DNA from: Giardia intestinalis
Lineage: Eukaryota
Direction: 5' to 3' (one strand)
DNA length: 64,000 nucleotides
Assembly (NCBI GenBank): GCA_000002435.2
Contig: CM018789.1
Within the stretch, counting starts at the first letter, position 1; each line of letters begins with the position of its first letter. The notes beneath the pieces were generated by a model, which did no database searches, had not been told where the DNA came from, and saw only the letters and a program-made list of their open reading frames with translations. Positions 31,293-48,903 of this stretch are shown here, piece after piece. The position numbers and the translations under genes are program-made.

Positions 31293-34200
31293 ATGCAGTC
31301 GCTAAAGCCGCGGCTTCTACAGTCTGTACAACCAACATTAGTGGGGTCCACCGAAAACTCCTCTTTTCCTAGTCAGCCTCGCTCTATGGCTAGAAAACTA
31401 GCTGCCATGGGGTCTCTCAAATTCTTAGTTTATGCTATTCGGAAGGCTCTGGAAACTATGCCACAGCCTTGGGAGGCGGTCAGGTATGTGACTGTAGCAC
31501 ACCAGAAGGCGGGGGCACTGACATATATTTTGAGCAAAAGTACTTCAAGCGAACACGACCTCATTAGGCAATGGACACGTGTTTGTGACTCTATCCCAAA
31601 AGATGCTGCCCCTCCGTCTTATCCTATATTTGATGGTACAGCCCCATATATGTGCTACAGGGACAATCTGGCCTTTGCACGACCCTTGCCACTCTTCAAG
31701 ACAAATGCCATCATCAGATTTCATCGACTAAAAAATCTATGTGCTGATCTAAGTGCTACGCAGAAAATATTGCTGAGTGATTCACGTAGAAGTTTAAAGA
31801 GTCGAGATAAATTTTCGTTCGAGCAACACCTACCATCAGTATTTACTAACCTCTCCTCTTTCCATGGTGATGACAACTTTTTAATGTACCAGCACGTTTA
31901 CCTTTATCATGCTTATACAGAAGATCAGTTGCTCACTTATCCAGCCCTATACTACCCCATCTCCATGCATCCTCCAGCTAATCTCCCTATCTTTCTTTCA
32001 CCGTCTCCTTCTGCCTTTTGCGGTACGTTTCTTGATCGAAGAAAAAGCAATCTCATGCACATTAATAGCTCTGCTATGCTTTCTCGCTCGGCTCAAATTA
32101 ACGAGTATAGTGATGCAATTCAGTCCTCTTTACAAACATCTACTTATAGATCACCATCCTTACTTAGTCCTCCTCTCAGTTCCGCTAGAAAATCTTTTCA
32201 TAAGAGAGAGATAAAGAGCAAATCTGTTACAACGATACTTCGCACCTCACCACAATTCTCTATCATATCTAATGTTGACTGGCTTGAGGCAGCTCAACAT
32301 CTCCTTGCACAAGCACACGATGCCATGACTCTTATGCTGCATCGCAAAAATATCACATTCCTCTCTCTCGATTATAACTTTAACCTGACTCACACGAAGG
32401 TCCTGTCTACAAAGGAACGTAAACAAAGCCGCTTCGGCAAGGCATTCCACTTGGTGCGCGAGCTCACGAAATTTCTTAAATACATGGTTGACACCCATAT
32501 TGCCCATAGATTGCTTCTAATAGACTATCCAACTTTTTTAACTGGCATCCATCATTTGTTTTTAAATATTGGAACTGTGACATCTGTATACCGTTATAAG
32601 TATAAGATTTCAAACCAAATAAGACAGCTAAAAGCCCTTGGAATGCTTTGTGGAGATGTACCTTTTTATCACCCGCTGCAGTGCGTAATGAACAGCTACT
32701 TAAGAGGCCTTAGTCCCTTGCTGGAGGCATATCTAAGTCGACTCTTGGCGAGAACCGCAGGAATTATTGACAAGGACTCTGGAAACTCGTCTAGACGAGT
32801 CACCCACCAACGATCCCTAGCAAACCAAATTGTGGAGCAGCGAAATAGATACGCCGGGCGATTTGTTTCAATGTATCCTCAGTTCACCACAAGATCTGCC
32901 ATGACAAAACTATTTTTGGCCCATTTGGCAGAGGCCTGGCTTTGTTGGCGGGCTGGCATGGCCTACGATCAAGTATATTCACAAATGTCCCCTGAAGTAG
33001 CAGATCTTGTTCAAGCTTATGTTTCTGAACGGGCAGATTTATACACAGCTTCTATTGCATGTACAAAGAAACGCATTGCAAGCAATAAGTGGATTGCAAA
33101 ATCAGAGCATTACAAATATTGCGGTAGAGCTGGAAGGCAAGATATGCGAGAGCTGATCGTTGCTAATGCAGCATACCTTTGTGAGCCTATTCAAAAGGAT
33201 CTCAGAGTCTCTCTTGGGACCGTTTATAGTCTTGCTTATCTTTGCATAACTGTTGCAGCACGAGTGTGTGCGTGTGGATCACATATTCCCTTCCCATCCC
33301 AAGAGTTTGAGTATGACGGAAAACTTCTGGAACTGGCGCTCAGGGATTTACGTGAAGATGTGCTCTCCGGCTCTATTCTTACAGTTGCTGATCGCCAGCT
33401 CCTAACACTTATTGAAAAGGCGACTTCTCTTCCTCATGAGTTTCTCATACGGATCAAGGAGATTCTTCTCAAGAAGCGTACATTTGATGCAGTACAAATA
33501 GAGTATGCCGAAGCACGAACATGTGTCTATCCCATATACCTCACCACTGGACTCACTCGGGTTGTTGATGTTTATTTCACATATTACCTAAGCTACCAGA
33601 TCACATCCAGCCCCCTGCACTATTTACTTTTTAAGCGAGGATTCAGCTCCATCGATCTAAGTAATCCATATTCTATGGAGCTCCCCGCAGAGCTCACCAT
33701 CAGATACTGCAAGCATGTTCACAGTACGTGCTCGGGCCTCCCTGCAACGGATGGTGAGGGGTGCTTTCTAGTCCACATGCATCTTAATACTGATAGCTAC
33801 TTTCGCGGCTTTAATCTGCACGTCATTGGTAAAGTCATTAGCCTACTCTTTGATCCTGTCATCTCTTCTTTCCTGATAACTCGCCTTTCCTCAAGTTTTT
33901 ACTTTAAAGATATGACATATACAGCAGTGCGTGGTGTTGCTCCTTCTTTCCAATTTTCTCATTTTTTGTTAACACTTCTATTATCAATCCTTGACTTAAC
34001 TATTCTACTACATTATGATGAGCAGCCCTTTTCTCCGACGATTATTCTGAGAGTGGTCACCTTCATTATTGCGTTCGCAAAGGATTATCGGCAATCAGGG
34101 GTGCCTCTCAGTCAACTCTGGCTTCGTAAAGCATGTCTTGAGAAGGGGATTGATCTATCCCGGCTTTCTATTTTTTACGGGACGTATAAGCTTCTGAGCT

Positions 34201-37200
34201 ATGTTCGTCAAGGAGAGAGCCTATACTTAGTTCTTCAAGAAGATAGGCAAGCTAATATTGAGAGTTCTAAAACCACTATCATGGAACAAGTCATGAAATC
34301 TATCCCCCAATCTATTGCATGCTACATTTCACGGCAATCTTCTTTCTGTGACAATCAGACATTCTACTTCGTGTCTCTCGTGAACCAGCCCATCAGATTT
34401 GAATTTATGGGATATATCATTTTGGCTAAAAGTATTAAGGATTTGGGCATGTCTACTAATATATTGCACTCTGTTTCGGCTACATTTATTGCCAATTTTA
34501 TTTATCATGCAAATCAATTAATTTCTAGCGCCGTGTCTACGTCCTTTTCAAAGATCATTGCTAAATGGAACTCCTTGCTACTTAATTGCGTTATTTACTA
34601 TCGCGAGGCACTGCTACAATCACCTAGGTTCTTACGCATCCTTATGGCTTATGAAGAGAAAGTCTGCAACAAAATCAAGCAAGGACTTAATTCAAAGATG
34701 CCAAACCGCTTTCCAAACGTCATCTTTTATTCGCCCAGAGAGTTAGGCGGGCTAGGTATGCTATCCGTTGGATCTGCAGGCGTATACCCTTCTAGCGAAG
34801 AGCTAAATCCAAAATATCCCGTTGCAGAGCGGTCTCGTCGTTGGGATCAGAAACACCAGGAGGTGCTACTTCCAAGTGTCATTCACTTTATTTCTCCGTG
34901 GGCTGATGAGCTTAATCGTAGCTTCCTTGGGTACCAGCGTCTTCTGTCTATCTTCTGTGAGTTTTACAATGGGCGGTCCCCTCTCTTCGGCGCACAAACT
35001 GGGTTTTACGTGTATGAATATGATGCGTGTGGGGCAGAGCAGCAGTATAGTTTCAAAGAAATTAGCGAATGCTTATCCAGTCAATGGACTGGATTTGCAG
35101 TCAGTACCTTCCGTGAAGCAGTTTTTCAAGCACTCTCCCAAGGGTCTAATAGTATTGAGCAGCAATCTCCTCTTGAGATTGCATGGGCCAATGGATGCAT
35201 ACCGCGGCTAACAACTCTGATACATTACGCCAAAGACCTTTATTGTCTGTTGTACCGCAATCCGTTTCTACATCACTTGGCTAAGGGCATCAGTATAGGC
35301 AACGCGCTAACTCTTAAAAGTTGGTACAACAAAAAGCTTCTGGGATCACTGTATGATCTTCAAGGATACAAGAAGATTATCACGGCAATATTTGGTGGGG
35401 TAGAAGAAATATTGCACCACACACTCTACCCAGCAACAGATTTTAGTGATTATAAATCCGTGGTGTGGAGCACAGCAACCGAACATGAGACTGGATTGGC
35501 AAAAAGAACAAACCTAACACGTGCAAGGAGACAGGGGCTTTCGCAAATTCCGAACCGACGCTTTGCTCTCTGGTGGAGTCCCACGATCAATCGTAGTTCT
35601 GTCTACATCGGATATCGTTCACAAATAGACTTAACCGGAGTGTACATGTGTGGGAAATTGGCCACTTTAAAAACAGCATATGTTTCTCTGTTCAGGGGCC
35701 ATGCTTGGCCAATGATTCACTCCTCATTGGTCAAAACCCTTCTTGCAATCTTACAAGACGCTTTTCGGGGCCTTCCGCTTGATACCATCAAGGCAGAGTC
35801 CGTACATCCCCGAAAGTCATATCATTACCATACAAGCTGTGCAGACATTTCTGTAACATGGACACGTTCATTGACTGTTCAGCAGGATTATTCCATTCAG
35901 ATACAAAAGGGTTCATCAGAGCCGCACCATAATTCACAAGAAGAGAGTAGTGGCGCACACGCGTCTTCAGGAGAACAAGTCGATAGCTGCACACATTTAT
36001 GGTGGATAGACCTCCATCTCACGTGGGGAAACGTCGATACATGTACTTCTCTCGCGAAGTACTCTAAAGACCGTCACAAATATTATACATCTGATCGTTC
36101 ACGAGGGATATACAGGAGCCCACACGGAATTATTATTTGTATTGACTTACTATATCGTGAAATTGCAGCCTATGGATCTGTCCCAACTATAGCGATTCCA
36201 GCCATAAACAAGGCCATTTCAGAACTGTTGGAATCCTTACACAGTAATACTATGATGAACATGCTTGCAGACAGAATCAGGACGCAACTGGGACTAAGTT
36301 CTTCAAGTGTGCACAAGCTCACAGACATCACTCCATCCTCCATCGGAGATCTGTTCACTGGCAAGGTAATAATAGTCGATGACTCCTTGGCATATAACTT
36401 CAGGATGCTGAACAGAGATGATACGCGTGCATCTCGTGTTATCATCAATGGGTTCATTTCGATCTTCAATCCCCAGACTGGCCGCTTGGTACTTTCGGTC
36501 GTCCATGCAGATACGTATGCAGGCCAGAGTCGCCGGGCTTCTCTAAGCCGCTGGCGTACGGCAGACTTACTAACGGGGTACATCTCTTCGCTTCCACAGG
36601 CCTTACGACCCACGACAGTGGTTGTATGTTCCAGGCAATCTATTGATCCAATTAGGACCCTGCTTAGTGTGCTTAATCCACCTATTGTTGTACGCGGAAC
36701 TAGTTTGCACTGGCAATTTCAAAATATACGTAGCATGGTTATCTGCGCAGAAGGGCAAGAAGGGCATATTCGAGGAACTGTGAATGAGGTGATTCAGCTT
36801 CAGCAAACCAGTATCTCTTTAAGCATTGATTTATATGCTCAGTTTCGAGGCACGGATGAGCAGACGGGGTTAATTTTGGAAGGTACTCCCATCCAACATT
36901 TTATTGCTGTCCTACTTATGTTGCAACTTGCTAATCTTTCACCACTCACCATATACAAAATAATATCTCAATCAAATCTGGAGTTGAAAAAATCCCTACC
37001 AGAAGCGGAACTAGCTTACAGACCCACGTATGCATCACTGACTACTAAGTCTATGGAGCGACTCTCAACCATAGGCAACCTCACAGACTTTGTCCTGCAT
37101 CTTCCTCGGGCGCCTTATCAACAATGGTGCCCAGTGATCTCCGCGATGACCGAGCGCGTAATAAATGAATCTGCTAAAAAGCTAGGAGTACGTTCAGACT

Positions 37201-38222
37201 GTTTATCTCCAGCTGAAAAGAAGGACCTTGTATTAGGCGCAGAGCTGGTAATATCTAATGCTCCCGAACGCAGAACAAGCATCTTCTCACGACTTGTGTT
37301 ATCTGCCAACACTCTGGGCGAACGGATGCTTTCATCGACACAACCAAAAGAAGTCACTGACGTTAGATCACAAAGCCGACTCAGCAATTTGCATTTCGGT
37401 GAGCAATGGTTATGCCTCCAAAGAAACGCTATTTTCTGCAAACTATTTGCGGCATCACAACCCAAAGCAGATGCAGACACAGACTCATCTTTTTGTAGAT
37501 CGATTATTGACCAAGCTGTTGGTGCTACTACAGATAACAGTTCACGACTTTGTGTTATAATTGGGCAGGTCACAAAATCGCAACCAATCTTACCATGCTC
37601 AGGCCTGCAAGCACCAGTTGCTCTGACATTTGGATTGCAACATAGTGTTACTATGAATGGGAAGCCCCGAACACTTATTGAGCTACGACATATACGTGCT
37701 TATCTGGGAGGATGGGACTTCTTCTCGTACGCCGCGATACCAATAACGGAGTTATTACAAGATGTTAAGTTCACAGAGGAGAAAACAGGGATGAAGTTTT
37801 ACGGGGTACTGGTGGATTTTTCACGGGCAAAGCTTTTCCCAGATAAGCTACTAGAAAGTTCTACATTGAAAAAATCCAGTGTCGATATAATTTCTCTGGT
37901 AGGAAGAACAACCTCCGTATGCTTACTAACCTTCTATTTTGGGGCCGATAGAATAGAGAAGCAATCCAATTTTTGCACGTATTACCTAAAGCAATCAAAC
38001 ACTGACAAGACTGTGGATCAAAAGGAGTTCAGTCGTGTGCGAGTACACGTGGCATCTAATTACAGTCTAGAGTTTTATTGCATTGATCCCATTACCCAAT
38101 GCGAAAAGCCAGGTGGCATCGATCAATCAGTATCGTATCAATCATGTATTCAGTTCTCCAAGCTTTTTGCCTCAACGCAGATAGAATGGGAAGAATTGGA
38201 ATGCCATGTGGATCGAATATGA
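31293..38222 (+). CDS. PRP8: Pre-mRNA-processing-splicing factor 8 (Prp8), 2309 aa
   Basis: ATG at 31293. STKERKQSRFGKAFHLVRELTKFLKYMVDTHIAHRL...SVYRYKYKISNQIRQLK matches the highly conserved Prp8 stretch TTKERKKSRFGNAFHL.RE...D.H.QYRL...G.YRYKYKLM.QIR. The length is typical of Prp8. Confidence 0.9.
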   Translation: MQSLKPRLLQSVQPTLVGSTENSSFPSQPRSMARKLAAMGSLKFLVYAIRKALETMPQPWEAVRYVTVAHQKAGALTYILSKSTSSEHDLIRQWTRVCDSIPKDAAPPSYPIFDGTAPYMCYRDNLAFARPLPLFKTNAIIRFHRLKNLCADLSATQKILLSDSRRSLKSRDKFSFEQHLPSVFTNLSSFHGDDNFLMYQHVYLYHAYTEDQLLTYPALYYPISMHPPANLPIFLSPSPSAFCGTFLDRRKSNLMHINSSAMLSRSAQINEYSDAIQSSLQTSTYRSPSLLSPPLSSARKSFHKREIKSKSVTTILRTSPQFSIISNVDWLEAAQHLLAQAHDAMTLMLHRKNITFLSLDYNFNLTHTKVLSTKERKQSRFGKAFHLVRELTKFLKYMVDTHIAHRLLLIDYPTFLTGIHHLFLNIGTVTSVYRYKYKISNQIRQLKALGMLCGDVPFYHPLQCVMNSYLRGLSPLLEAYLSRLLARTAGIIDKDSGNSSRRVTHQRSLANQIVEQRNRYAGRFVSMYPQFTTRSAMTKLFLAHLAEAWLCWRAGMAYDQVYSQMSPEVADLVQAYVSERADLYTASIACTKKRIASNKWIAKSEHYKYCGRAGRQDMRELIVANAAYLCEPIQKDLRVSLGTVYSLAYLCITVAARVCACGSHIPFPSQEFEYDGKLLELALRDLREDVLSGSILTVADRQLLTLIEKATSLPHEFLIRIKEILLKKRTFDAVQIEYAEARTCVYPIYLTTGLTRVVDVYFTYYLSYQITSSPLHYLLFKRGFSSIDLSNPYSMELPAELTIRYCKHVHSTCSGLPATDGEGCFLVHMHLNTDSYFRGFNLHVIGKVISLLFDPVISSFLITRLSSSFYFKDMTYTAVRGVAPSFQFSHFLLTLLLSILDLTILLHYDEQPFSPTIILRVVTFIIAFAKDYRQSGVPLSQLWLRKACLEKGIDLSRLSIFYGTYKLLSYVRQGESLYLVLQEDRQANIESSKTTIMEQVMKSIPQSIACYISRQSSFCDNQTFYFVSLVNQPIRFEFMGYIILAKSIKDLGMSTNILHSVSATFIANFIYHANQLISSAVSTSFSKIIAKWNSLLLNCVIYYREALLQSPRFLRILMAYEEKVCNKIKQGLNSKMPNRFPNVIFYSPRELGGLGMLSVGSAGVYPSSEELNPKYPVAERSRRWDQKHQEVLLPSVIHFISPWADELNRSFLGYQRLLSIFCEFYNGRSPLFGAQTGFYVYEYDACGAEQQYSFKEISECLSSQWTGFAVSTFREAVFQALSQGSNSIEQQSPLEIAWANGCIPRLTTLIHYAKDLYCLLYRNPFLHHLAKGISIGNALTLKSWYNKKLLGSLYDLQGYKKIITAIFGGVEEILHHTLYPATDFSDYKSVVWSTATEHETGLAKRTNLTRARRQGLSQIPNRRFALWWSPTINRSSVYIGYRSQIDLTGVYMCGKLATLKTAYVSLFRGHAWPMIHSSLVKTLLAILQDAFRGLPLDTIKAESVHPRKSYHYHTSCADISVTWTRSLTVQQDYSIQIQKGSSEPHHNSQEESSGAHASSGEQVDSCTHLWWIDLHLTWGNVDTCTSLAKYSKDRHKYYTSDRSRGIYRSPHGIIICIDLLYREIAAYGSVPTIAIPAINKAISELLESLHSNTMMNMLADRIRTQLGLSSSSVHKLTDITPSSIGDLFTGKVIIVDDSLAYNFRMLNRDDTRASRVIINGFISIFNPQTGRLVLSVVHADTYAGQSRRASLSRWRTADLLTGYISSLPQALRPTTVVVCSRQSIDPIRTLLSVLNPPIVVRGTSLHWQFQNIRSMVICAEGQEGHIRGTVNEVIQLQQTSISLSIDLYAQFRGTDEQTGLILEGTPIQHFIAVLLMLQLANLSPLTIYKIISQSNLELKKSLPEAELAYRPTYASLTTKSMERLSTIGNLTDFVLHLPRAPYQQWCPVISAMTERVINESAKKLGVRSDCLSPAEKKDLVLGAELVISNAPERRTSIFSRLVLSANTLGERMLSSTQPKEVTDVRSQSRLSNLHFGEQWLCLQRNAIFCKLFAASQPKADADTDSSFCRSIIDQAVGATTDNSSRLCVIIGQVTKSQPILPCSGLQAPVALTFGLQHSVTMNGKPRTLIELRHIRAYLGGWDFFSYAAIPITELLQDVKFTEEKTGMKFYGVLVDFSRAKLFPDKLLESSTLKKSSVDIISLVGRTTSVCLLTFYFGADRIEKQSNFCTYYLKQSNTDKTVDQKEFSRVRVHVASNYSLEFYCIDPITQCEKPGGIDQSVSYQSCIQFSKLFASTQIEWEELECHVDRI

Positions 38223-39769
38223 GTAGAACAGTCATATTTGGCAAATCTAATGGACGAATCGTAGTTTGGCCTCAAGAGAACGGAATGCTGTGCCGCTGAA
38301 GCTCGGCGTCGGCGGAACCCAGCAGCCCAGAGTAAACCCCTCATCTTCCTCACACGCTCCGGGACACCAGACTGATCCGCAAGCCGCTGGCCACGCTGGA
38401 GTGCCCCGAGGCGGCCCAGGAGAGTGCGCGTGCTGAGGCCTGTCCATTAGACCCTCCTAGCAGCAGAGCGCCGTCGTGGCAGGAGAGCATGCCCCTTGCA
38501 TCGGTCGGTCGGTTGCTGAGACCCCTGGTGCTCTGTCTGTGAGAGGAGACTGCCCATGAGGGCCCTGTACGCTGCTCCCCTGCACCGACTGGCACAGCAG
38601 GGGGCCGGATGCCGAGGGACACCTCCAGAGTCTCGGGTCTCTACAGGACAGGACACACGGCAGAGACATCTGCATGCGGGCCGGGAGTCCTGCTCGGCCC
38701 CGTCCCTCGTCTGACGCCTTGGTCTCTCGGGAGCCCTGTCAGCACCACTGGAGGCAGGGGCTCTCCAGGAGCGCCGCACCGGGCCCGCATGGAGTGGATG
38801 GCCCCACAGCCACTGCACGGGCCTCTCGGGCAGGGGGTCTCTCTGCCACTGCAAGCTGCAGCAGCGTAAGGGTCGCCCCGTGTGCTGCCCTCTTGCCGTG
38901 GCGGGGCTTCAGGCATGCCATCGGGACTGTCCGACGGTCACCGGTTGAGCCCTGTGTGACAGCAACAGACGAGAAGACTGCCCCACAACGACATGCCCTC
39001 GCTGGAGGACTGTCAGCAGAGCGGAGGAAGCTACGGCCACTGGGGGAGTGAACGATCTCCGTGGGTCCAGGGGCGCTGCACTGCGGGCCTGTCGGCTCGG
39101 CCTCTGATGGGTACCACGATCACTCTGCCCGGTCTGGCAGATCACGAGGGGTCTGAGGCCGGCCTATTGGGAGGAGGACCGGGACCCTCGCTGATGGTTG
39201 AGCAGAATCACTACAGGGGGGCACGAGCTCGAGTAAGTGGGAGCCTTCTAGCAGGGTGCATGTCAACCGAGCGAGGAGAACGACATGGCAGTCATCAAGG
39301 AGCCATGACCTCTGAGCCTTCTGGGCTCTGCGCCGGGCCGGACATCAGCACAGCCCGCCTGCCGGTAGCACTGCCGCGGGGGTCTCCGTCGTGTGAATGC
39401 CTGGGGTGAGCCGCTTGGGCACGGAGACGGGCTGTGCGGCGCCCAAGAGTGGAAGATCGCCACGCTCTGGTGCTGTGGGCCGAGTCGAGACAGGGGCTCC
39501 AAGGTAGGGGTGGAACAGCGCTCCCCCCGTGTGCCGTGCTGGGTGGCCACAGACGGGCAGGGGCCGCTGGGGGCAGGCGTCGCCGTCGAGACAGAGGAAG
39601 GCCAGCCTCGAGCATGCCAGTGCCAGAGCGCATGGCAAGTGCACAAGGACACGGCTCCCCCCTCTTCCATCGGGGACGGCGGGCCGGGGGCTGAGAGGTG
39701 GCTCGGCACAGACGGTGGCATCAGGGTGCGTCCATGGCCGGCGCAGGGGCCACCGCAGAGGACCCTCTA

Positions 39770-41815
39770 ATGTTCCAACTGATACCCCTGTTCATGGCAA
39801 GCGCGCTCATGGCGCCTTGTCAGCCAGATGGGAATCACCTGACCACTTGCGCACACGAAAAGTGCGAGACGGTCGGGTCAGCCGAGATTTGTACCGAGTG
39901 CAAGGTCGGAGGCGTCCCGGTCGACGGCTTCTGCCGACCCTTCGGCTCCATCCAGGCCGCGGCGGCCGGGTGCACCAAAGCAGACGGGGCTGCTCTCGAC
40001 AAGATGACAGCAACCTGCGAGAAGTGCGGCGACGGGTACTTCCTCTTCATGGGCGGGTGCTACAAGACGAGCCTGTGGTCTGAAGTCTGCACAGCAGCCA
40101 GTAATGGAGTATGTACTACTTGTAATACAAAGAACGGCCTGTTCAAGAACCCGGCTGCAACAGTGACTCCTGGTAACGAGTGCATCCTGTGCTCCGATGC
40201 TACAGATAGAAACGGGGTCATGGGAGTGGAGAATTGTCTCAAGTGCACGGCGCCAGGTGGCAATACAGGAGCAGCCGCGTGCACTGCCTGCAAGGCTGGC
40301 TTTTATGGGTCCGGTCCATGCACAAAGTGTCATGACGATTGTGCTACTTGCAGTGGCGCAGCAAATAATCAGTGCACATCTTGTAAGGCTGGAAAGTACC
40401 TGAAGACCGATACTAACACTTGCGTAGATGCTGGTAGTTGTAATGGAAACACTTATGCTGATCCAGTGACAAGGACATGCAAGGATTCTGCAATAACTGA
40501 TTGCACCACGTGTGAGTACAACCCGGCAACTGGGGGCCCAAAGTGCACAGCCTGTGGTAACAGTAAGAAGGTGAAGACAGCCATCGACGGCGCCACAACG
40601 TGCGTGACGGTTGCATCCGAATGTGTGGATGAGAATCACTTTAAAGATGACGGTAACACTATGTGTGTGCTATGCAGTGATACCAGCGGGTCAGACCCAA
40701 ATAAAGGGGTAGCGCAGTGCAAGACATGTACTAAGAATGGAGCTAACAAGCCTGAATGCAAGACATGCCTCGAAGGGTATGTTCTGAAGGGGTCTGGTGC
40801 TGACGCCATTTGTGAGTCTTGTGGAAACAACTGTGCAGTGTGTACCGCAGCCAATGATATATCGACTTGTACAGGGTGCCTTCCCGGGTACTTCCTAAAA
40901 GCCGAGGGTGGAACAAAAGAGTGCGTCCCGTGTGATGACACAGCCAAAGGTGGTCGTGAAGGCTGTAGTCTATGTTCTAGCAACGGTGGATTTAAGTGCA
41001 CAGATTGTAAAGCGAACTACAGGAAGCAGTCTAATGGAGATGCAGGCGATGACTATACATGTGTGAAGACCTGCGAGGACCCTACTGTGTGTGGGGGGAC
41101 GTCTGGAGCCTGCGATGCCATAGTGATCGATGCTAATGGAAAGGAGCATTATTACTGTTCATACTGTGGAGAGACCAATAAGTTCCCCATTGATGGACTA
41201 TGTACTGATAACAAGGGAACAAATGCTGGGTGTACTGATCATACTTGCAGCTACTGTGCTGCCGGGTTCTTCCTGTACATGGGTGGCTGCTACAAGATTG
41301 ATACAGTACCAGGAAGCTATATGTGCTCCAAATCAACAACAGCAGGTGTCTGTGATACACCCAATGCCAACAATAGATTCTTCGTTGTCCCAAAGGCAAT
41401 AAGTGCCGAACAATCTGTGCTGGCTTGTGGCAACCCATTGGGCACAATTGCAGGCGGTAATGCCTACGTCGGAGTGGAGGGGTGCTCCCAGTGCACGGCC
41501 CCCGACGCTCGAGCTGATGGCGGCATGGCGGTTGCCACGTGCACGGCCTGCGAGGACGGCAAGAAGCCCGGCAAGAGCGGCACCGGGTGTGTGGCGTGCC
41601 CTGATGCTAACTGCAAGAGCTGCACGATGGATGACGTATGTGAAGAGTGTGCTGATGGGTTCAGTCTAGACAATGGTAAGTGTGTGTCTTCTGGCACTAA
41701 TAAGAGCGGCCTTTCTACCGGCGCCATCGCTGGCATCTCCGTCGCAGCCATCGTCGTCGTCGGGGGCCTCGTCGGCTTCCTCTGCTGGTGGTTCATCTGT
41801 CGGGGGAAGGCGTAA
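39770..41815 (+). CDS. Variant-specific surface protein (VSP), left copy of an inverted pair
   Basis: Cys-rich with many CXXC motifs, GGCY motifs, a single C-terminal TM and the ...GGLVGFLCWWFICRGKA tail. The track ORF starts on GTG at 39698. In-frame ATGs are at 39734 (MAGAG...) and 39770 (MFQLIPLFMASALMAPC, signal-peptide-like). I chose 39770. Confidence 0.85.
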   Translation: MFQLIPLFMASALMAPCQPDGNHLTTCAHEKCETVGSAEICTECKVGGVPVDGFCRPFGSIQAAAAGCTKADGAALDKMTATCEKCGDGYFLFMGGCYKTSLWSEVCTAASNGVCTTCNTKNGLFKNPAATVTPGNECILCSDATDRNGVMGVENCLKCTAPGGNTGAAACTACKAGFYGSGPCTKCHDDCATCSGAANNQCTSCKAGKYLKTDTNTCVDAGSCNGNTYADPVTRTCKDSAITDCTTCEYNPATGGPKCTACGNSKKVKTAIDGATTCVTVASECVDENHFKDDGNTMCVLCSDTSGSDPNKGVAQCKTCTKNGANKPECKTCLEGYVLKGSGADAICESCGNNCAVCTAANDISTCTGCLPGYFLKAEGGTKECVPCDDTAKGGREGCSLCSSNGGFKCTDCKANYRKQSNGDAGDDYTCVKTCEDPTVCGGTSGACDAIVIDANGKEHYYCSYCGETNKFPIDGLCTDNKGTNAGCTDHTCSYCAAGFFLYMGGCYKIDTVPGSYMCSKSTTAGVCDTPNANNRFFVVPKAISAEQSVLACGNPLGTIAGGNAYVGVEGCSQCTAPDARADGGMAVATCTACEDGKKPGKSGTGCVACPDANCKSCTMDDVCEECADGFSLDNGKCVSSGTNKSGLSTGAIAGISVAAIVVVGGLVGFLCWWFICRGKA

Positions 41816-42935
41816 GTAGCATCCACTTAGGTAGTAAACGCGTCACTGTACAGCCTACTGCTCTTTCACGATGCCAGTAGACCCTCAAAGCCCGGTTTTT
41901 CCTAAGATCTCACCCCTTCTATGCAGCGTGAAAGAGTAGAAAATCCAAAAATAAGCAGCGGGACCGCCCGGCATGTCTACCGCTCTTCTGCCCTGGAGCC
42001 AGCAGACGACGGCCCAGATGCCCCCGTTGTGATCGGGACCTGTGTGAGCCTTCCCGGCGGCGCCCCGGCCTGGCTGGCGCTCTAGTCTCCTCAACCAGCT
42101 CTGCGCGATCCGGCCCCCCGCCGAACCCTGTGGGCCACCGTACTTCTCCGTGCCTCAATAGCGTCCTCGTCGCCCGAGACCGGCCGGGACGCCCTGGCCG
42201 CTGCAGGAGAGGCGCGTCGAGCGATGATCCTCGACCGAGGCCGCCCCCAGCTCCATGGCCATCTGAACGTGCCCGCAGTGGCCGTGCCGCGGCAGTGGAT
42301 TAGCCCGAGGGCGACCCGTGCCGCCCGATCTACGACCCCTGTTTTTGGATTTCTGCGAAGCAAGGCCTAGTTCTGTCATAGGGCGGCTATAGTAATGGTT
42401 AGCATAGCCCGATGGATACAGAGCCGGAGAAGACGCGGACCGGATCTTGTGCTAACTGATGGCGTGCCGTCTACTGTCTACAGCGCAGAGGTGATGCGTA
42501 GACGCACCTGCCCCCGCTATAGGTGGTCCTTGCAGTACCAGACCCGGTAGAGTGGGCTGCCGTCAGGAGCCAGCACAGCGGAGGGCGCCATGTGCCGATA
42601 GGAGCGTGCCCGGTCGCCCCTGGTTACACCGTAAGCGACGCAAGGGCGGGTAGGCGCGGGTCCCACTGTAGCGACACGTGCAAGACACAGCCGCGCGTCA
42701 TCAGGGCCTCAGAGAGCACTGGCTATGATACGGAAGGGCTACAGCCAGCCCGTTCCAAAGAAGGGGAGCCACACAGGCCCGAGGATCACGTCTCCGGAGA
42801 AGGGAAGTTCTGTCCCGGTGGCCGAGATAATGAAAGGGCGATAACTGGAGTGCCCGCTGACCTGAGCCTGAACAGCTCGTGGCACGCATGCAAGGCGCTC
42901 ACTCTGGGACACAAGCGGACATCCGGTTCACGGCC
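39859..42935. repeat. Left arm of a large inverted duplication (~3.07 kb: VSP coding sequence from codon ~30 onward plus ~1.1 kb of 3' flank)
   Basis: The VSP proteins are identical from ...KCETVGSAEICTECK to CRGKA. Flanking junk ORFs in the track are identical between 41885-42951 and 45853-46878 on opposite strands. Manual reverse-complement comparison places identity between ~39859 and ~42935. Confidence 0.8.
41825..41839 (+). promoter_or_regulatory. VSP-type extended polyadenylation signal ACTTAGGTAGTAAAC
   Basis: It lies 10 nt after the stop of the VSP at 41815 and matches the known Giardia VSP 3' motif (ACTYAGRTAGTRAAY containing AGTRAAY). Confidence 0.7.
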
Positions 42936-45838
42936 TCGTGTGCTCCGCTAGCGGTGGCCTCCCCTTTGGTCCTGCTTCATAGCGGGCGAGGGCGGGCCTT
43001 TGTGTTCGTTTTACAAGGCTTCCACCTGACTCGACGGCAGTAGCCGTTGGCGCTCTGGCTCCACTGGCGGTCCTGATTCGGTGAGAGTCTATCTTGGCAA
43101 TAGGAAGTGGATGAGGCCGTGGCTCGCTATGAGGGAGCGTCGTTATTTGTCTTTGGTCGCTGCTTCCCCTGGGAGCGGATATGTCTTCTGTCACTGTGGC
43201 TCTCTGGAACTAGTGATAGTCGCCTCTGTTGCCCCTCGGTGTCCGTCCAACCGTGGTTCTGGGGTAGCACGCCTTCTCAGTCGCAGTCACTCTGGTCCCA
43301 CAGTGGGTCCAGTTGGTGATTGGAAATAGGCTGACAGGCGGCAGTTGCTGGGTATTCATTGGCTGCCACAGGACAGCGAGGGCCGGACAGAACTCTCGGT
43401 GCCCGCGGGGCCCTCCTGGCGTCTCTGGAGTGGGGAGCCGTCCATCCCATAGGTGGTTGAGAACGTCCTTGTGTCCCTGTCTTCTCACTGTGGTATCCCT
43501 CTGGTTGCTGGATGACACCCACGCCCACCGCCTTGCACTTGTGACGGGCTCTGCTCTGGTCGCCGGGCTGGTCTGATCTCCAGCCTGCGTTGCACTCCCC
43601 GAGACACGGAGGCAACGATCACACAGGGCCCCTAGTTGTCCCTCTGCACCAGTGGAGGAGAGCCCCTGTCTGTTGTCTACAATCATCCCATCCTCAGAGA
43701 GCCTGGCCTGGGCGGGCTGCCGTGCGGGCTCTGAGTGCGCCCAGCAGCACAGCCCTAAAGGTAGCCGGGTGGAGTGAATCATCGTGGGATGCACGTAAGG
43801 AGCGCACAGGTCCGGGGCGCCCGAACAGGCTCAGCCCTCGCACCGGCTCCTCCCCGGCCGCCTCAGTCGCGGCGCTAACAGGAAGACGCGTGTCCTGTTC
43901 GACGACCCGGCACACGGACCGACGGCCGGCGAATGCACATGGCAAGGTGGAATAAAAAGTTTGGAACGTCGGCGCTCGCGCGGATCGGGATGCGGCGTTC
44001 TCCAGGCTGGGAGGCCGTGCGTGCGGGCATTACCTTTAACATGTTCCTCACCACGGCCCCAGGCTGATGGGCGGCCGAGGCCTTGCCAGCGTCACGCACG
44101 CCTCTTGCCGGCATTGGGCCGCTCGGGATCGTACATAGGCAGGGCTGCAGAGGCCTTCCGCGGCTCCTGCGGGCAATAGTCTGCCACGGAGAGCACGCCC
44201 AGCTTGGGAGCTCCTCAGGATCACCGTGCAGATCATCGAGACCGGTTCGACGGGCCCCACGTTGAAGGAGGCGCACGGACCGGCGAGCGTGCCGTCTTTG
44301 CAGGCAGGCCCTCGCTGGCCGGGGTGGCGGGGCTCTCCTGTATCTCCGCCGGAGGACGCCCTATCTACTGGCAGCATTTCCACAGTTGCAACGCTACAGG
44401 GACGGGCTGCAGCTCTTCCGCAGGATCTCGTCGGACAGGCAGTTCGGCGTACTCTCACGTGCACTCGCAGGAGCTCCAGGGGCTGCTCCCCGCCCTCGTA
44501 GAATAGCACCCCGCACGCCCCAAAGCCAAATCGAAATGCAGCAGGTGCAGTCGACTCTTCTCGGGTTGTGGCGCTGATCCAATCAGACGCCGCGGCACGC
44601 CCCGAGCAGGCCTCGTCCAGCAGCGGGTGCTCTAGCCGCGCCCCTGAGGCAAGTCTGCTTCTGACCCCGTCCCTGTGCCGACCCCAGCGAGCCCCCGACG
44701 GCTCCGGAGAAGGAGCGCCTTGCGGAGCCCCCTACTGATCCCTCGGTGCAGGAGGATCCCCGGATTACCGACTTGCGTGCGGCAGGCGGCGGAGCACCCC
44801 AGGCCATCCTTACATCTACATGCCCAGCGAGCGCTGTAGCGGGCCGAGATGAAGCCGCGGGCGCCGATGCCGGGGCGCTGGCCACGGAGGCTGCGGCCCT
44901 ACAACCATGCGACCCCTTGGTTCGCGTTTTAGTTTTTGGGGTCCCAAGTTAGCGCCCCCGGAGCAGCACCGGCTGTACACTGTTCACTGCACTCGGTCGG
45001 TCGCATGGTGTAGCAGCTACGGCTCCTCTAATTACGGCGCTTGATGTGTTTACTACTGGGGGTGCTGCTCTCCGTTCTACGGGGTGGCAGGAGTGCTCCC
45101 GCGTGCACGGTAGTACCAGTGGACGCCCCTCAGCTGCCGGGCCGGAGCAGCTCTTGGATGGGTGGACCTATCTTCCTCCGTGCAGCCGTTCCTCGGGCCT
45201 AGTAGACGTGCTTTGCTGTGTCCCGCAGCCCGGATCCTTGCCTTCAGACGCCAGCACGGAACTCTCTAAATTTGTCCTCCTGCGGCGTCCTATGCTACCA
45301 TGCACACTTCGTTTTCATTAAGCCCTTAGGGTTGCAGTCCAGGACTACCGGCCCCCGCATCATCAGATATGGTTGCTGACTGCGGCCGCTTACGCAGTCG
45401 CAGCTGGTTCCGCACTGCCCCTGTATCGGTAGCCTTGGCCTGCATCGCCGGTGTGCGGCCCACTTTGCTCTGCGGGCATACCACACACAGTTACTAGCCT
45501 CGTGATGTGGTGCACCGCTGGGGCAGATAATAGCAGCAGCAATCCTGCAGCCCCGTGTGGTCGTCTGGCAGTGGATGCGAAGGTTTGCAGGCGGGAGCGG
45601 AGGGCCGGGGCTGCTCTTGCTCACGTCACCGGGCGCCGTGGTCAAGGGCTCCGGAGGCACGCCCAGCCCTCTGCTGGACGAGGATCGATGGGCCGCTCAG
45701 AGCCCCGCAAGCTGCGTCCAGGCTGGTATTAGGTGGCCCAATGACGTGGCGACGGGAGCTGTGAGGCGAGACCTGTCGCGCGCCGAGCGTCGGGCCATTG
45801 CTACACCGACTCCCCGAAGGGACACACTCAGCCCGGGG

Positions 45839-48800
45839 CCGGATGTCCGCTTGTGCCCCAGCGTGAGCGCCTCATGCGTGCCACGAGCTGTTCAGGCTCA
45901 GGTCAGCGGGCACTCCAGTTATCGCCCTTTCATTATCTCGGCCACCGGGACAGAACTTCCCTTCTCCGGAGACGTGATCCTCGGGCCTGTGTGGCTCCCC
46001 TTCTTTGGAACGGGCTGGCTGTAGCCCTTCCGTATCATAGCCAGTGCTCTCTGAGGCCCTGATGACGCGCGGCTGTGTCTTGCACGTGTCGCTACAGTGG
46101 GACCCGCGCCTACCCGCCCTTGCGTCGCTTACGGTGTAACCAGGGGCGACCGGGCACGCTCCTATCGGCACATGGCGCCCTCCGCTGTGCTGGCTCCTGA
46201 CGGCAGCCCACTCTACCGGGTCTGGTACTGCAAGGACCACCTATAGCGGGGGCAGGTGCGTCTACGCATCACCTCTGCGCTGTAGACAGTAGACGGCACG
46301 CCATCAGTTAGCACAAGATCCGGTCCGCGTCTTCTCCGGCTCTGTATCCATCGGGCTATGCTAACCATTACTATAGCCGCCCTATGACAGAACTAGGCCT
46401 TGCTTCGCAGAAATCCAAAAACAGGGGTCGTAGATCGGGCGGCACGGGTCGCCCTCGGGCTAATCCACTGCCGCGGCACGGCCACTGCGGGCACGTTCAG
46501 ATGGCCATGGAGCTGGGGGCGGCCTCGGTCGAGGATCATCGCTCGACGCGCCTCTCCTGCAGCGGCCAGGGCGTCCCGGCCGGTCTCGGGCGACGAGGAC
46601 GCTATTGAGGCACGGAGAAGTACGGTGGCCCACAGGGTTCGGCGGGGGGCCGGATCGCGCAGAGCTGGTTGAGGAGACTAGAGCGCCAGCCAGGCCGGGG
46701 CGCCGCCGGGAAGGCTCACACAGGTCCCGATCACAACGGGGGCATCTGGGCCGTCGTCTGCTGGCTCCAGGGCAGAAGAGCGGTAGACATGCCGGGCGGT
46801 CCCGCTGCTTATTTTTGGATTTTCTACTCTTTCACGCTGCATAGAAGGGGTGAGATCTTAGGAAAAACCGGGCTTTGAGGGTCTACTGGCATCGTGAAAG
46901 AGCAGTAGGCTGTACAGTGACGCGTTTACTACCTAAGTGGATGCTACTTACGCCTTCCCCCGACAGATGAACCACCAGCAGAGGAAGCCGACGAGGCCCC
47001 CGACGACGACGATGGCTGCGACGGAGATGCCAGCGATGGCGCCGGTAGAAAGGCCGCTCTTATTAGTGCCAGAAGACACACACTTACCATTGTCTAGACT
47101 GAACCCATCAGCACACTCTTCACATACGTCATCCATCGTGCAGCTCTTGCAGTTAGCATCAGGGCACGCCACACACCCGGTGCCGCTCTTGCCGGGCTTC
47201 TTGCCGTCCTCGCAGGCCGTGCACGTGGCAACCGCCATGCCGCCATCAGCTCGAGCGTCGGGGGCCGTGCACTGGGAGCACCCCTCCACTCCGACGTAGG
47301 CATTACCGCCTGCAATTGTGCCCAATGGGTTGCCACAAGCCAGCACAGATTGTTCGGCACTTATTGCCTTTGGGACAACGAAGAATCTATTGTTGGCATT
47401 GGGTGTATCACAGACACCTGCTGTTGTTGATTTGGAGCACATATAGCTTCCTGGTACTGTATCAATCTTGTAGCAGCCACCCATGTACAGGAAGAACCCG
47501 GCAGCACAGTAGCTGCAAGTATGATCAGTACACCCAGCATTTGTTCCCTTGTTATCAGTACATAGTCCATCAATGGGGAACTTATTGGTCTCTCCACAGT
47601 ATGAACAGTAATAATGCTCCTTTCCATTAGCATCGATCACTATGGCATCGCAGGCTCCAGACGTCCCCCCACACACAGTAGGGTCCTCGCAGGTCTTCAC
47701 ACATGTATAGTCATCGCCTGCATCTCCATTAGACTGCTTCCTGTAGTTCGCTTTACAATCTGTGCACTTAAATCCACCGTTGCTAGAACATAGACTACAG
47801 CCTTCACGACCACCTTTGGCTGTGTCATCACACGGGACGCACTCTTTTGTTCCACCCTCGGCTTTTAGGAAGTACCCGGGAAGGCACCCTGTACAAGTCG
47901 ATATATCATTGGCTGCGGTACACACTGCACAGTTGTTTCCACAAGACTCACAAATGGCGTCAGCACCAGACCCCTTCAGAACATACCCTTCGAGGCATGT
48001 CTTGCATTCAGGCTTGTTAGCTCCATTCTTAGTACATGTCTTGCACTGCGCTACCCCTTTATTTGGGTCTGACCCGCTGGTATCACTGCATAGCACACAC
48101 ATAGTGTTACCGTCATCTTTAAAGTGATTCTCATCCACACATTCGGATGCAACCGTCACGCACGTTGTGGCGCCGTCGATGGCTGTCTTCACCTTCTTAC
48201 TGTTACCACAGGCTGTGCACTTTGGGCCCCCAGTTGCCGGGTTGTACTCACACGTGGTGCAATCAGTTATTGCAGAATCCTTGCATGTCCTTGTCACTGG
48301 ATCAGCATAAGTGTTTCCATTACAACTACCAGCATCTACGCAAGTGTTAGTATCGGTCTTCAGGTACTTTCCAGCCTTACAAGATGTGCACTGATTATTT
48401 GCTGCGCCACTGCAAGTAGCACAATCGTCATGACACTTTGTGCATGGACCGGACCCATAAAAGCCAGCCTTGCAGGCAGTGCACGCGGCTGCTCCTGTAT
48501 TGCCACCTGGCGCCGTGCACTTGAGACAATTCTCCACTCCCATGACCCCGTTTCTATCTGTAGCATCGGAGCACAGGATGCACTCGTTACCAGGAGTCAC
48601 TGTTGCAGCCGGGTTCTTGAACAGGCCGTTCTTTGTATTACAAGTAGTACATACTCCATTACTGGCTGCTGTGCAGACTTCAGACCACAGGCTCGTCTTG
48701 TAGCACCCGCCCATGAAGAGGAAGTACCCGTCGCCGCACTTCTCGCAGGTTGCTGTCATCTTGTCGAGAGCAGCCCCGTCTGCTTTGGTGCACCCGGCCG

Positions 48801-48903
48801 CCGCGGCCTGGATGGAGCCGAAGGGTCGGCAGAAGCCGTCGACCGGGACGCCTCCGACCTTGCACTCGGTACAAATCTCGGCTGACCCGACCGTCTCGCA
48901 CTT
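45839..48903. repeat. Right arm of the inverted duplication (reverse complement of the left arm)
   Basis: As for the left arm. The inner boundary was mapped by hand to ~45839 (shared ...ccggatgtccgcttgtg...), with small indel differences near the inner edges. Confidence 0.8.
46924..46938 (-). promoter_or_regulatory. VSP extended polyadenylation signal (ACTTAGGTAGTAAAC on the minus strand)
   Basis: Reverse complement of gtttactacctaagt, immediately 3' of the right-copy VSP stop. It is part of the duplicated arm. Confidence 0.7.

What the first reader, a model, noticed from the sequence alone, without database searches (positions are those of the whole stretch)
39734..39900. The 5' boundary of the duplication falls inside the VSP coding region, giving two copies with different promoters, signal peptides and first ~30 residues
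Identity between the copies begins at ~39859 (left) and ~48903 (right), inside the mature N-terminus. Upstream of that the two genes are only ~70% identical at nucleotide level (APCQPDGNHLTTCAHEKCE versus APCQQDGDHIVTCQVNKCE) and have unrelated signal peptides (MFQLIPLFMASALMA versus MLLTAFYIVVSSFAA). The left copy's upstream sequence is strongly G+C-rich and has no A/T-rich initiator immediately 5' of the candidate ATGs at 39734 or 39770. The right copy and the third VSP also sit after G+C-rich DNA. A sharp homology breakpoint inside a coding region is a footprint of gene conversion. The two otherwise identical VSPs could be regulated differently.
Basis: seen in the sequence. Interest (0 to 1): 0.5.

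Follow-up and report, generated by a model that had tools for sequence, protein, structure and literature searches.

The report
Chimeric inverted Giardia VSP gene pair
Two convergent surface-antigen (VSP) genes of Giardia intestinalis WB are identical from codon 31 onward but keep different starts and upstream DNA, because the left gene kept its own 5' end and acquired its neighbour's body by recombination; this is an atypical example of a known kind of gene pair.

Summary
The window is Giardia intestinalis WB chromosome 1. The two genes are GL50803_00112113 (39770..41815, +) and GL50803_0050375 (48993..46948, -).

They lie in an inverted repeat, 39860-42926 versus 48903-45839. It is perfect for 3031 bp. 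Identity then drops in one step at codon 30/31: 28/48 for codons 15-30, 14/42 for the signal peptide, and none upstream.

The gene-conversion reading is broadly right and can be sharpened:
- The left gene is a chimera.
- Its G+C-rich flank, TAATGTT initiator and MFQLIPLF start are ancestral at this locus. They sit next to PRP8 in assemblage A2 genomes, which lack the pair.
- From nt 91 its body belongs to the right-hand lineage. Nt 91-297 are identical to GL50803_00137614, which has the right-type start.
- The crossover falls in a 17-nt block (KCETVG) shared by all four genes compared.

Two points in the finding are wrong or imprecise. Both copies carry the VSP initiator PyAATGTT. The pre-breakpoint identity is 58%, not about 70%.

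Inverted VSP pairs, mosaic VSPs and this pair itself are already in the literature, but the breakpoint is not described in the papers I read. Which copy is expressed remains untested. Interest is modest.

The parts
38322..39769 (+). G+C-rich 5' flank of the left VSP. It is a recurrent VSP upstream flank and is ancestral at this locus.
   Evidence: GC is 0.66 overall and 0.705 in the last 200 nt. It aligns to the syntenic DH (A2) locus L014 at 93-98% per 100 nt. It also aligns to a non-syntenic DH VSP locus, L001, at 89%. No Pfam or Rfam hit. Short-read contigs break where it begins.
39768..39774 (+). VSP initiator / Kozak-like element TAATGTT of the left gene
   Evidence: Sequence confirmed. 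The PyAATGTT consensus is defined in PMC2996952 and in bioRxiv 10.1101/2022.03.07.483299.
39770..41815 (+). Left VSP gene, GL50803_00112113 (VSP159; XP_001704836.2), 681 aa
   Evidence: Exact protein match. Pfam VSP PF03302, E = 3.9e-43. Gene ID from the preprint's S1 table and from PMC5192507.
39770..39859 (+). Left-specific first 30 codons (MFQLIPLFMASALMAPCQPDGNHLTTCAHE)
   Evidence: 42/90 identical to the right copy, 80/90 to GL50803_00114674, and 62/90 to the syntenic DH gene, with the first 24 nt identical.
39860..39876 (+). Crossover interval, AAGTGCGAGACGGTCGG (KCETVG). It is bounded by the last left-lineage site (39859) and the first right-lineage site (39877).
   Evidence: Four-gene alignment: the block is identical in all four genes.
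39860..42926 (+). Left arm of the inverted repeat: the VSP body from codon 31 plus 1111 nt beyond the stop codon
41824..41843 (+). Extended VSP poly(A) signal CACTTAGGTAGTAAACGCGT (mirror copy at 46920-46939 on the minus strand)
   Evidence: The motif is listed for both genes in the preprint's S6 table.
42891..42942 (.). Imperfect inner edge of the left arm. It holds a 2-bp indel and 2 mismatches, then decays. Its partner is 45823-45872.
   Evidence: and (I2: 50 nt, 82% complementary).
42927..45838 (.). Unique 2912-bp G+C-rich spacer with no recognisable gene
   Evidence: GC 0.64. No VSP remnant by tblastn. No Pfam or Rfam hit. The preprint describes the region between the two genes as homologous to gene-free subtelomeric DNA.
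45839..48903 (-). Right arm of the inverted repeat
46948..48993 (-). Right VSP gene, GL50803_0050375 (VSP181; XP_037901545.1), 681 aa
   Evidence: Exact protein match. Pfam VSP. Gene ID. Its length, mass, Cys and CXXC counts match VSP181.
48904..48993 (-). Right-specific first 30 codons (MLLTAFYIVVSSFAAPCQQDGDHIVTCQVN), with the CAATGTT initiator at 48989-48995
   Evidence: 85/90 identical to GL50803_00137614. Initiator confirmed.
48994..50271 (.). 1278-nt head-to-head intergenic region between the right VSP and the third VSP
   Evidence: The spacing equals that between GL50803_0050370 and GL50803_00137614 at chr1 22266/23545 (coordinates).
50272..51894 (+). Third VSP, GL50803_0013727, 540 aa, with a CAATGTT initiator
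51952..53046 (+). Truncated pseudo-VSP, also present at the syntenic A2 locus

Best explanation
The left gene, GL50803_00112113, is a recombinant.

Its upstream flank, TAATGTT initiator and first 30 codons are the resident 5' end of a VSP gene that has sat next to PRP8 since before assemblages A1 and A2 split.

In the WB (A1) lineage, a head-to-head VSP unit came to lie downstream. This unit is the right VSP plus GL50803_0013727, and it is related to the chr-1 unit GL50803_0050370/00137614.

The resident gene was then rebuilt from codon 31 through 1.1 kb beyond its stop codon as an inverted copy of the right gene. The outer junction was resolved by homologous recombination at the first block shared by the two 5' types, the 17-nt KCETVG-coding sequence. 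That explains why it is abrupt, in frame and in register.

The inner junction lies in a short imperfect inverted repeat. This fits either fold-back or template-switch priming of repair synthesis, or the edge of a conversion tract.

The result is two convergent genes. Their mature products differ at 7 of the first 16 residues only. Each has its own initiator, signal peptide and 5' flank.

Shown here: the chimeric structure, the ancestral status of the left 5' end, the right-lineage origin of nt 91-297, and the absence of the pair in A2.

Inferred: the order of events and the enzymatic mechanism (gene conversion, break-induced replication, or fold-back synthesis).
For: 1. There is a step from 3031/3031 identity to 28/48, 14/42 and then 34/200.
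2. The four-gene comparison shows segments with different relatives:
   - nt 1-90: left versus 114674 is 80/90; right versus 137614 is 85/90; left versus right is 42/90.
   - nt 91-297: left = right = 137614 (207/207), against 187/207 for 114674.
3. 137614 has the right-type start and the same 1278-nt head-to-head spacing to an AS12-like VSP. The segment spanning the breakpoint is therefore contiguous in the right lineage.
4. At the syntenic DH locus L014 the order is PRP8, the same G+C-rich flank, an MFQLIPLF-type VSP, a pVSP, then primase. The PRP8-primase gap is 3.7 kb, against 15 kb here. There is no right copy, spacer or head-to-head region. Two independent ENA assemblies reproduce this layout.
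5. All differences between the arms cluster in the inner 36 bp. The chance of that under random mutation is (36/3067)^3 = 1.6e-6.
6. The chimeric left protein is identical in the 2007 Sanger-based annotation, so the junction is not peculiar to the PacBio assembly.
7. Sharp mosaic borders inside VSP ORFs are general. VSP4A1 is identical over the last 231 residues but only 30-60% identical in the middle. Recombination among VSPs is reported in PMC2996952.
Against: - The direction of transfer rests on one paralogue (137614), for which I had only the first 399 nt, taken from a supplementary table. If 137614 were itself converted, the argument weakens.
- The right copy and 137614 differ at 5 sites in nt 1-90 and at none in nt 91-297 (P = 0.0026). 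This hints at further exchanges among the three genes.
- The A2 locus is itself diverged (76-88% identity) in the VSP part, so it is not a clean picture of the ancestor.
- The A2 assemblies are not long-read assemblies (inferred from the ENA contig names and the Logan source, plus my recollection for DH), and could in principle have collapsed a repeat.
- No WB sequence outside this window was available, so I could not test whether the spacer continues the 3' flank of a donor locus.
Confidence: 0.72

Rival explanations
1. Reverse direction. The shared body was originally the left gene's. It was copied in inverted orientation onto a resident right-type VSP, overwriting that gene from codon 31.
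For: The step pattern is symmetrical and does not by itself give a direction. The left-type paralogue 114674 is still 90% identical in nt 91-297.
Against: Nt 91-297 are 207/207 identical to 137614, which has the right-type start and the same head-to-head spacing. Left-type genes differ at 20-30 of those 207 sites. The A2 locus has no right-type gene to be overwritten.
Confidence: 0.12
2. An older complete inverted duplication, with the right-type start on both copies and arms kept identical by continuing arm-to-arm gene conversion. The 5' end and flank of the left copy were later replaced by a left-type cassette from another locus.
For: The imperfect inner edge is what continuing conversion in a palindrome would leave. 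The left flank belongs to a multi-copy family, seen in L001 and in the contig breaks.
Against: The left flank and the left-type start occupy the same position next to PRP8 in A2 genomes. They are therefore resident, not imported. This history also needs two events where one suffices.
Confidence: 0.1
3. An assembly or polishing artefact. The two bodies differ in reality and were homogenised, or a 5' end was mis-joined at the shared N-terminal block.
For: VSP pairs were once questioned as assembly artefacts. Repeats did end contigs in the 2007 assembly. Short-read assemblies break at both edges of the block.
Against: The left chimera is identical in the 2007 Sanger annotation and in the 2020 PacBio assembly. 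A gene with the right copy's length, mass, Cys and CXXC counts and CAATGTT initiator was catalogued in 2010 as VSP181. The arms carry their own differences at the inner edge and have unique flanks. The PacBio assembly is stated to resolve duplications up to 20 kb.
Confidence: 0.04

Closest known systems
Identical inverted VSP gene pairs of G. intestinalis WB, with vsp1267 as the prototype. There are 14 pairs in Adam et al. 2010 (PMC2996952), 19 in Xu et al. 2020 (PMC7000408) and 20 in bioRxiv 10.1101/2022.03.07.483299.
   Same: Two VSP genes in convergent orientation. The arms are perfectly identical and extend beyond the stop codon. There is a unique G+C-rich spacer, and the pair sits in a gene-poor VSP neighbourhood.
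   Different: In those pairs the ORFs are identical. Divergence points lie 139-729 bp outside the ORFs. Convergent pairs are 2.5-2.8 kb apart. Here the outer boundary is inside the ORF at codon 30/31, the arm runs 1111 nt past the stop codon, and the ORFs are 5132 nt apart. The pair is absent from both published pair lists. The preprint mentions it only as an example of partial duplication.
[quoted passage not shown]
   Same: The 5' flank, initiator and signal peptide behave as a cassette found in front of different bodies. Examples are 112113, 114674 and the DH genes for the left type, and 50375, 137614 and VSP4A1 for the right type. Mosaic borders are sharp.
   Different: Here the exchanged partner is the neighbouring inverted gene, and the tract covers the rest of the gene plus 1.1 kb of flank. 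I did not read the 1995 paper. I know its content only from the citation.
Palindrome or inverted-repeat arms homogenised by gene conversion (for example human Y-chromosome ampliconic palindromes), and fold-back inverted duplications. This comparison is from general knowledge.
   Same: Long, near-perfect inverted arms around a unique spacer. Differences are confined to one arm edge.
   Different: The outer edge here is a junction with a different paralogue lineage rather than an eroded arm end. No mechanism has been demonstrated in Giardia.

Membership tests
Giardia variant-specific surface protein (VSP, PF03302) | Pfam VSP domain above the gathering score | tested here: met
   148.3 and 146.8 bits against a cut-off of 31.4.
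Giardia variant-specific surface protein (VSP, PF03302) | C-terminal transmembrane domain followed by CRGKA | tested here: met
   Both translations end ...GFLCWWFICRGKA.
Giardia variant-specific surface protein (VSP, PF03302) | Cys-rich ectodomain with many CXXC motifs | tested here: met
   79 Cys (11.6%) and 27 CXXC motifs in each copy.
Giardia variant-specific surface protein (VSP, PF03302) | PyAATGTT initiator at the start codon, and the extended poly(A) signal | tested here: met
   TAATGTT at 39768-39774 and CAATGTT at 48989-48995. The poly(A) signal is at 41824-41843 and 46920-46939.
Giardia variant-specific surface protein (VSP, PF03302) | N-terminal signal peptide | not tested
   No predictor was run here. 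The preprint's S1 table lists a signal peptide for the right copy, MLLTAFYIVVSSFA. Xu et al. say they kept as VSPs only genes with a predicted signal peptide.
Identical inverted VSP pairs (Adam 2010; Xu 2020) | Two VSP genes in inverted orientation with identical flanking arms | tested here: met
   Convergent genes in 3067-bp arms at 99.87% identity.
Identical inverted VSP pairs (Adam 2010; Xu 2020) | Identical ORFs | tested here: not met
   19 of the first 30 residues differ. 'duplicated_with' is '-' for both genes in the S1 table. The pair is absent from Table 2 of PMC7000408.
Identical inverted VSP pairs (Adam 2010; Xu 2020) | Divergence points outside the ORFs (139-729 bp), with convergent pairs 2.4-3.2 kb apart | tested here: not met
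   The outer point is inside the ORF. The inner point is 1111 nt past the stop codon. The ORFs are 5132 nt apart.
Non-allelic gene conversion or recombination tract between paralogues | Adjacent segments have different closest relatives | tested here: met
   For nt 1-90 the left copy groups with 114674. For nt 91-297 it is identical to the right copy and to 137614.
Non-allelic gene conversion or recombination tract between paralogues | The junction lies within sequence shared by donor and recipient | tested here: met
   The 17-nt block 39860-39876 is identical in all four genes and is followed by 90% identity between lineages.
Non-allelic gene conversion or recombination tract between paralogues | Non-reciprocal transfer, with the donor unchanged | not testable with these tools
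   This needs the pre-event haplotype, or population or long-read data from related A1 isolates.
Fold-back or template-switch inverted duplication | A short inverted repeat or microhomology at the inner junction next to a unique spacer | tested here: inconclusive
   A 36-50-nt imperfect inverted repeat sits at the arm ends. It fits priming, but it equally fits the edge of a conversion tract.

The most novel reading that the evidence does not exclude
The pair could serve as a natural reporter for how Giardia chooses a VSP. The two genes share the same body, 3' end and poly(A) signal. They differ in 5' flank, initiator variant and a 90-nt unique tag.

If only one copy is ever switched on, selection acts through the 5' flank or chromatin, not through the mRNA sequence as the RNAi model implies.

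A second possibility is that the perfect arms ending in an imperfect 36-50-nt inverted repeat are the signature of fold-back repair synthesis. That mechanism might then have generated all of Giardia's inverted VSP pairs.
Probability: 0.2. Interest if true: 0.55.

Novelty: new member of a known kind. Interest (0 to 1): 0.3.

Why it matters
VSP switching underlies antigenic variation in a major human parasite, and its control is still disputed between 5'-flank or epigenetic models and RNAi models.

This locus gives a dated, anatomically resolved example of how a new VSP gene arrangement arises. A resident promoter and signal peptide were joined to a neighbour's body at a conserved 17-nt motif, after the A1/A2 split.

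It also provides two nearly identical antigens behind different 5' flanks, which can be told apart by a 90-nt tag. That makes copy-specific expression directly measurable.

There is a practical consequence too. RNA-seq and proteomic signals reported for 'GL50803_112113' cannot be assigned to one copy unless reads or peptides from the first 30 codons are used.

Tried and rejected
- Retrieving WB DNA for the paralogues failed. GL50803_00137614, 00114674, 00116477 (P0010-P0012) and GL50803_0013727 are 'not on record'. I therefore used only the first 399 nt printed in a supplementary table.
- Short-read (Logan) contigs carrying WB-identical PRP8 or primase end at the edges of the VSP block. They cannot confirm either junction.
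- The P15 (assemblage E) primase contig ends in a differently oriented VSP, so it is not informative about the ancestral state.
- I looked for genes, retro-element remnants and RNAs in the left flank and spacer. There was no Pfam hit except a sub-threshold Sortilin_C match (E = 0.055, well below the gathering score), no Rfam hit, and no VSP remnant by tblastn.
- A poly(A)-signal-like 15-mer in the spacer (45042-45056) has no coding remnant beside it, so I did not treat it as a pseudogene.
- Divergence of the 5' ends by point mutation after a simple duplication is rejected. Both 5' ends match other paralogues at 89-94%.
- P0009 (L001) is not the orthologous locus. Its neighbours are different, and L014 is the syntenic one.
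- The bacterial promoter/terminator scan was not used, because the organism is a eukaryote.
Full report
**What the window is.** Both VSP ORFs match annotated proteins of Giardia intestinalis WB clone C6 exactly. These are KAE8301282.1/XP_001704836.2 and KAE8301283.1/XP_037901545.1, on a 1,485,438-bp record. A preprint's S1 table names them GL50803_00112113 (left, 39770..41815, +) and GL50803_0050375 (right, 48993..46948, -), on chromosome 1, NC_051856.1.

By length, mass, Cys and CXXC counts they are VSP159 and VSP181 in the catalogue of Adam et al. 2010. PMC5192507 confirms the first of these assignments. In 2010 the two genes were numbered far apart and were not recognised as a pair.

Both proteins are clear VSPs:
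- Pfam PF03302 well above threshold.
- A CRGKA tail.
- 79 Cys and 27 CXXC motifs.
- The extended poly(A) signal.

PRP8 lies upstream at 31293..38222. A third VSP (GL50803_0013727, 50272..51894), a truncated pseudo-VSP (51952..53046) and DNA primase (53248..54597) lie downstream.

**Checking the observation.** Self-BLAST finds one inverted repeat, 39860-42926 against 48903-45839, 3067 bp at 99.87% identity. In the ungapped register the identities are:
- 3031/3031 from 39860 to 42890.
- 28/48 over codons 15-30.
- 14/42 over the signal-peptide codons.
- 34/200 in the 200 nt upstream of the ATG.

Both ATGs lie exactly 90 nt from the junction, so the join is in frame and in register. The proteins differ at 19 of the first 30 residues and nowhere else. 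After signal-peptide removal that leaves 7 differences among the first 16 mature residues.

The inner end of the repeat behaves differently. All four differing bases (a 2-bp indel and two mismatches) lie in the last 36 bp, and weak complementarity continues for another 16 nt. The chance that three random events all fall in those 36 of 3067 nt is 1.6e-6.

**Corrections to the finding.**
- The left copy does have an initiator. VSP genes use PyAATGTT around the start codon (PMC2996952), and a later survey found it in 135 of 136 WB VSPs.
- TAATGTT is at 39768-39774. The right copy and the third VSP have CAATGTT.
- ATG 39734 lacks the motif. It was the start only in the 2007 annotation, where the protein is 693 aa, that is, MAGAGATAEDPL plus the present protein.
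- Only the left flank is strongly G+C-rich: 0.705 over 200 nt, against 0.49 for the right copy and 0.57 for the third VSP.
- Identity just before the breakpoint is 58%, not about 70%.

**What the two 5' ends are.** Each belongs to a recurrent VSP 5' type.
- The right type (MLLTAFY...QVN) also heads GL50803_00137614 (P0010) and the published VSP4A1 (P0004).
- The left type (MFQLIPLF...AHE) also heads GL50803_00114674 (P0011), P0012 and several DH-isolate genes.

I took the first 399 nt of 137614 and 114674 from the preprint's S1 table and aligned four genes:
- Nt 1-90: left versus 114674 is 80/90; right versus 137614 is 85/90; left versus right is 42/90.
- Nt 91-297: left, right and 137614 are identical (207/207), while 114674 matches at 187/207.
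- After nt 297, 137614 diverges.

The left gene is therefore a chimera of a left-type start and a right-lineage body. The crossover is bracketed by the last left-lineage site (39859) and the first right-lineage site (39877). This interval is the 17-nt block AAGTGCGAGACGGTCGG (KCETVG), identical in all four genes. It is also where homology between the two 5' types begins, which is the simplest reason for the sharp step.

137614 lies head to head with an AS12-like VSP (GL50803_0050370) at a spacing of 1278 nt. That is the same spacing as between the right copy and GL50803_0013727 in the window. The right gene and its head-to-head partner therefore look like a copy of that unit. This is an inference from published coordinates and partial sequences.

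**Which part is resident.** The syntenic locus in isolate DH (the assembly GCA_000498715.1, taken to be DH, assemblage A2; locus L014) runs as follows: PRP8, the same G+C-rich flank, an MFQLIPLF-type VSP with TAATGTT, a truncated pVSP, then primase. Only 3.7 kb separate PRP8 from primase, against 15 kb in the window.

Identity to the window across that locus is:
- 97.6% up to 39111.
- 93-96% per 100 nt across most of the rest of the flank.
- 88% from 39181 to 40064.
- 98.6% from 52799 onward.

DH has no counterpart of the right copy, the spacer or the head-to-head intergenic region. Two independent ENA assemblies show the same short layout (L020 at 99.7% and L021 at 100% identity to L014).

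The left flank, initiator and start are therefore ancestral next to PRP8. The right gene and the inverted arm arose in the lineage leading to WB. The same flank family also precedes a VSP at a non-syntenic DH locus (L001, 89% identity). Short-read contigs of WB-like samples end where the flank begins, so it is multi-copy.

**Mechanism.** The best-supported account is that the resident left-type gene was rebuilt from codon 31 through 1.1 kb of 3' flank, using the neighbouring inverted right gene as template. The outer junction was resolved by homology at KCETVG.

The inner junction lies in a 36-50-nt imperfect inverted repeat. I can see two readings of this, and I cannot separate them:
- It is a pre-existing short inverted repeat that primed fold-back or template-switch synthesis. 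Everything newly made would then be perfect.
- It is the edge that arm-to-arm conversion fails to reach.

The reverse direction of transfer, and a two-step history with later import of the left 5' cassette, are less likely because of the 137614 identity and the A2 synteny. An assembly artefact is unlikely for three reasons. The chimeric left protein is identical in the Sanger-era annotation. A gene with the right copy's properties was catalogued in 2010. The arms also have private differences and unique flanks.

Sharp mosaic borders are normal for VSPs. VSP4A1 is identical to this protein over its last 231 residues but 30-60% identical in the middle, and another isolate's VSP matches residues 201-300 at 98%.

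**Comparison with what is known.** Inverted pairs of identical VSP genes have been described repeatedly:
- 14 pairs in 2010, 19 in 2020 and 20 in 2022.
- Divergence points 139-729 bp outside the ORFs.
- Convergent pairs 2.5-2.8 kb apart.

This pair fails three of those criteria. The ORFs are not identical, the outer boundary is inside the ORF, and the ORFs are 5132 nt apart with a 1111-nt 3' arm. It is absent from both published pair lists.

[quoted passage not shown] The preprint text I searched does not place the breakpoint, identify the chimera or compare the A2 locus. The distance the preprint gives differs from mine by 40 nt, and it calls the orientation head to head; the genes in the window are convergent.

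Recombination among VSPs, and VSPs with shared 5' regions and divergent bodies, are also established. I therefore class this as a further, atypical member of a known kind.

**Regulation.** This remains open.
- In the preprint's S9 table, 112113 has 0 unique sense TPM and 2-4 TPM when two-fold multi-mapping reads are shared out, in clones expressing VSP417 or VSP1267. Antisense signal is much higher. The row for 50375 was cut off in the stored file.
[quoted passage not shown] Those studies cite the gene by its old-format identifier, so the two copies are probably not told apart there.
- The same preprint reports that a VSP's own 100-nt 5' region restricts expression in cells already expressing another VSP, while 3' regions seemed irrelevant.

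That last result makes this pair a useful natural test: same body and 3' end, different 5' flanks, and a 90-nt unique tag. That potential, rather than the structure itself, is the main reason for a non-trivial interest score.

Noticed in passing
window 51952-53046 (+); L014 19376-20290: This is a truncated pseudo-VSP with no initiator and no TM/CRGKA tail. It ends its VSP-like part with ...DTNNGGIDGCVDTL in both WB and DH, so the same truncated pseudogene is present in both A1 and A2.
   Followed up: partly
window 41858-41874 / 41923-41939, mirrored at 46824-46840 / 46889-46905: A 17-nt inverted repeat (88% complementary, 48-nt loop) lies about 15 nt downstream of the extended VSP poly(A) signal in both arms.
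   Followed up: no
window 48943-48966 (nt 28-51 of the right gene) versus GL50803_00137614: The right copy and 137614 differ at 5 sites, all within nt 28-51 (signal peptide), and at none in nt 91-297. The chance of such clustering is 0.0026. It suggests a further short homogenised tract, or selection on the signal peptide.
   Followed up: partly
window about 38280-38375; loci L004-L013: Every short-read contig carrying a WB-identical PRP8 stops 57-152 nt after its stop codon, where the recurrent G+C-rich VSP 5' flank begins. Contigs carrying primase stop 190-545 nt before that gene. The whole VSP block is bounded by repeats.
   Followed up: partly
window about 39100-39180 versus L014: An indel of about 60 nt separates WB and DH inside the otherwise 93-98% identical left flank.
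   Followed up: no
window 45042-45056 (-): GTAGTAAACACATCA resembles the core of the VSP poly(A) signal inside the spacer. tblastn finds no VSP coding remnant beside it.
   Followed up: partly
P0004 (VSP4A1) versus window 46951-48993: The published VSP4A1 protein shares the right-type N-terminus (89/100 residues) and an identical C-terminal 231 residues with this gene, but is only 30-60% identical in between. It is a clear three-part mosaic.
   Followed up: partly
window 48994-50271 and 50272-51894: The head-to-head unit of the right VSP and GL50803_0013727 has the same 1278-nt spacing as GL50803_00137614 and GL50803_0050370 near the start of chromosome 1. The two AS12-like proteins look near-identical in the published table. 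This suggests a segmental duplication of the whole unit.
   Followed up: partly
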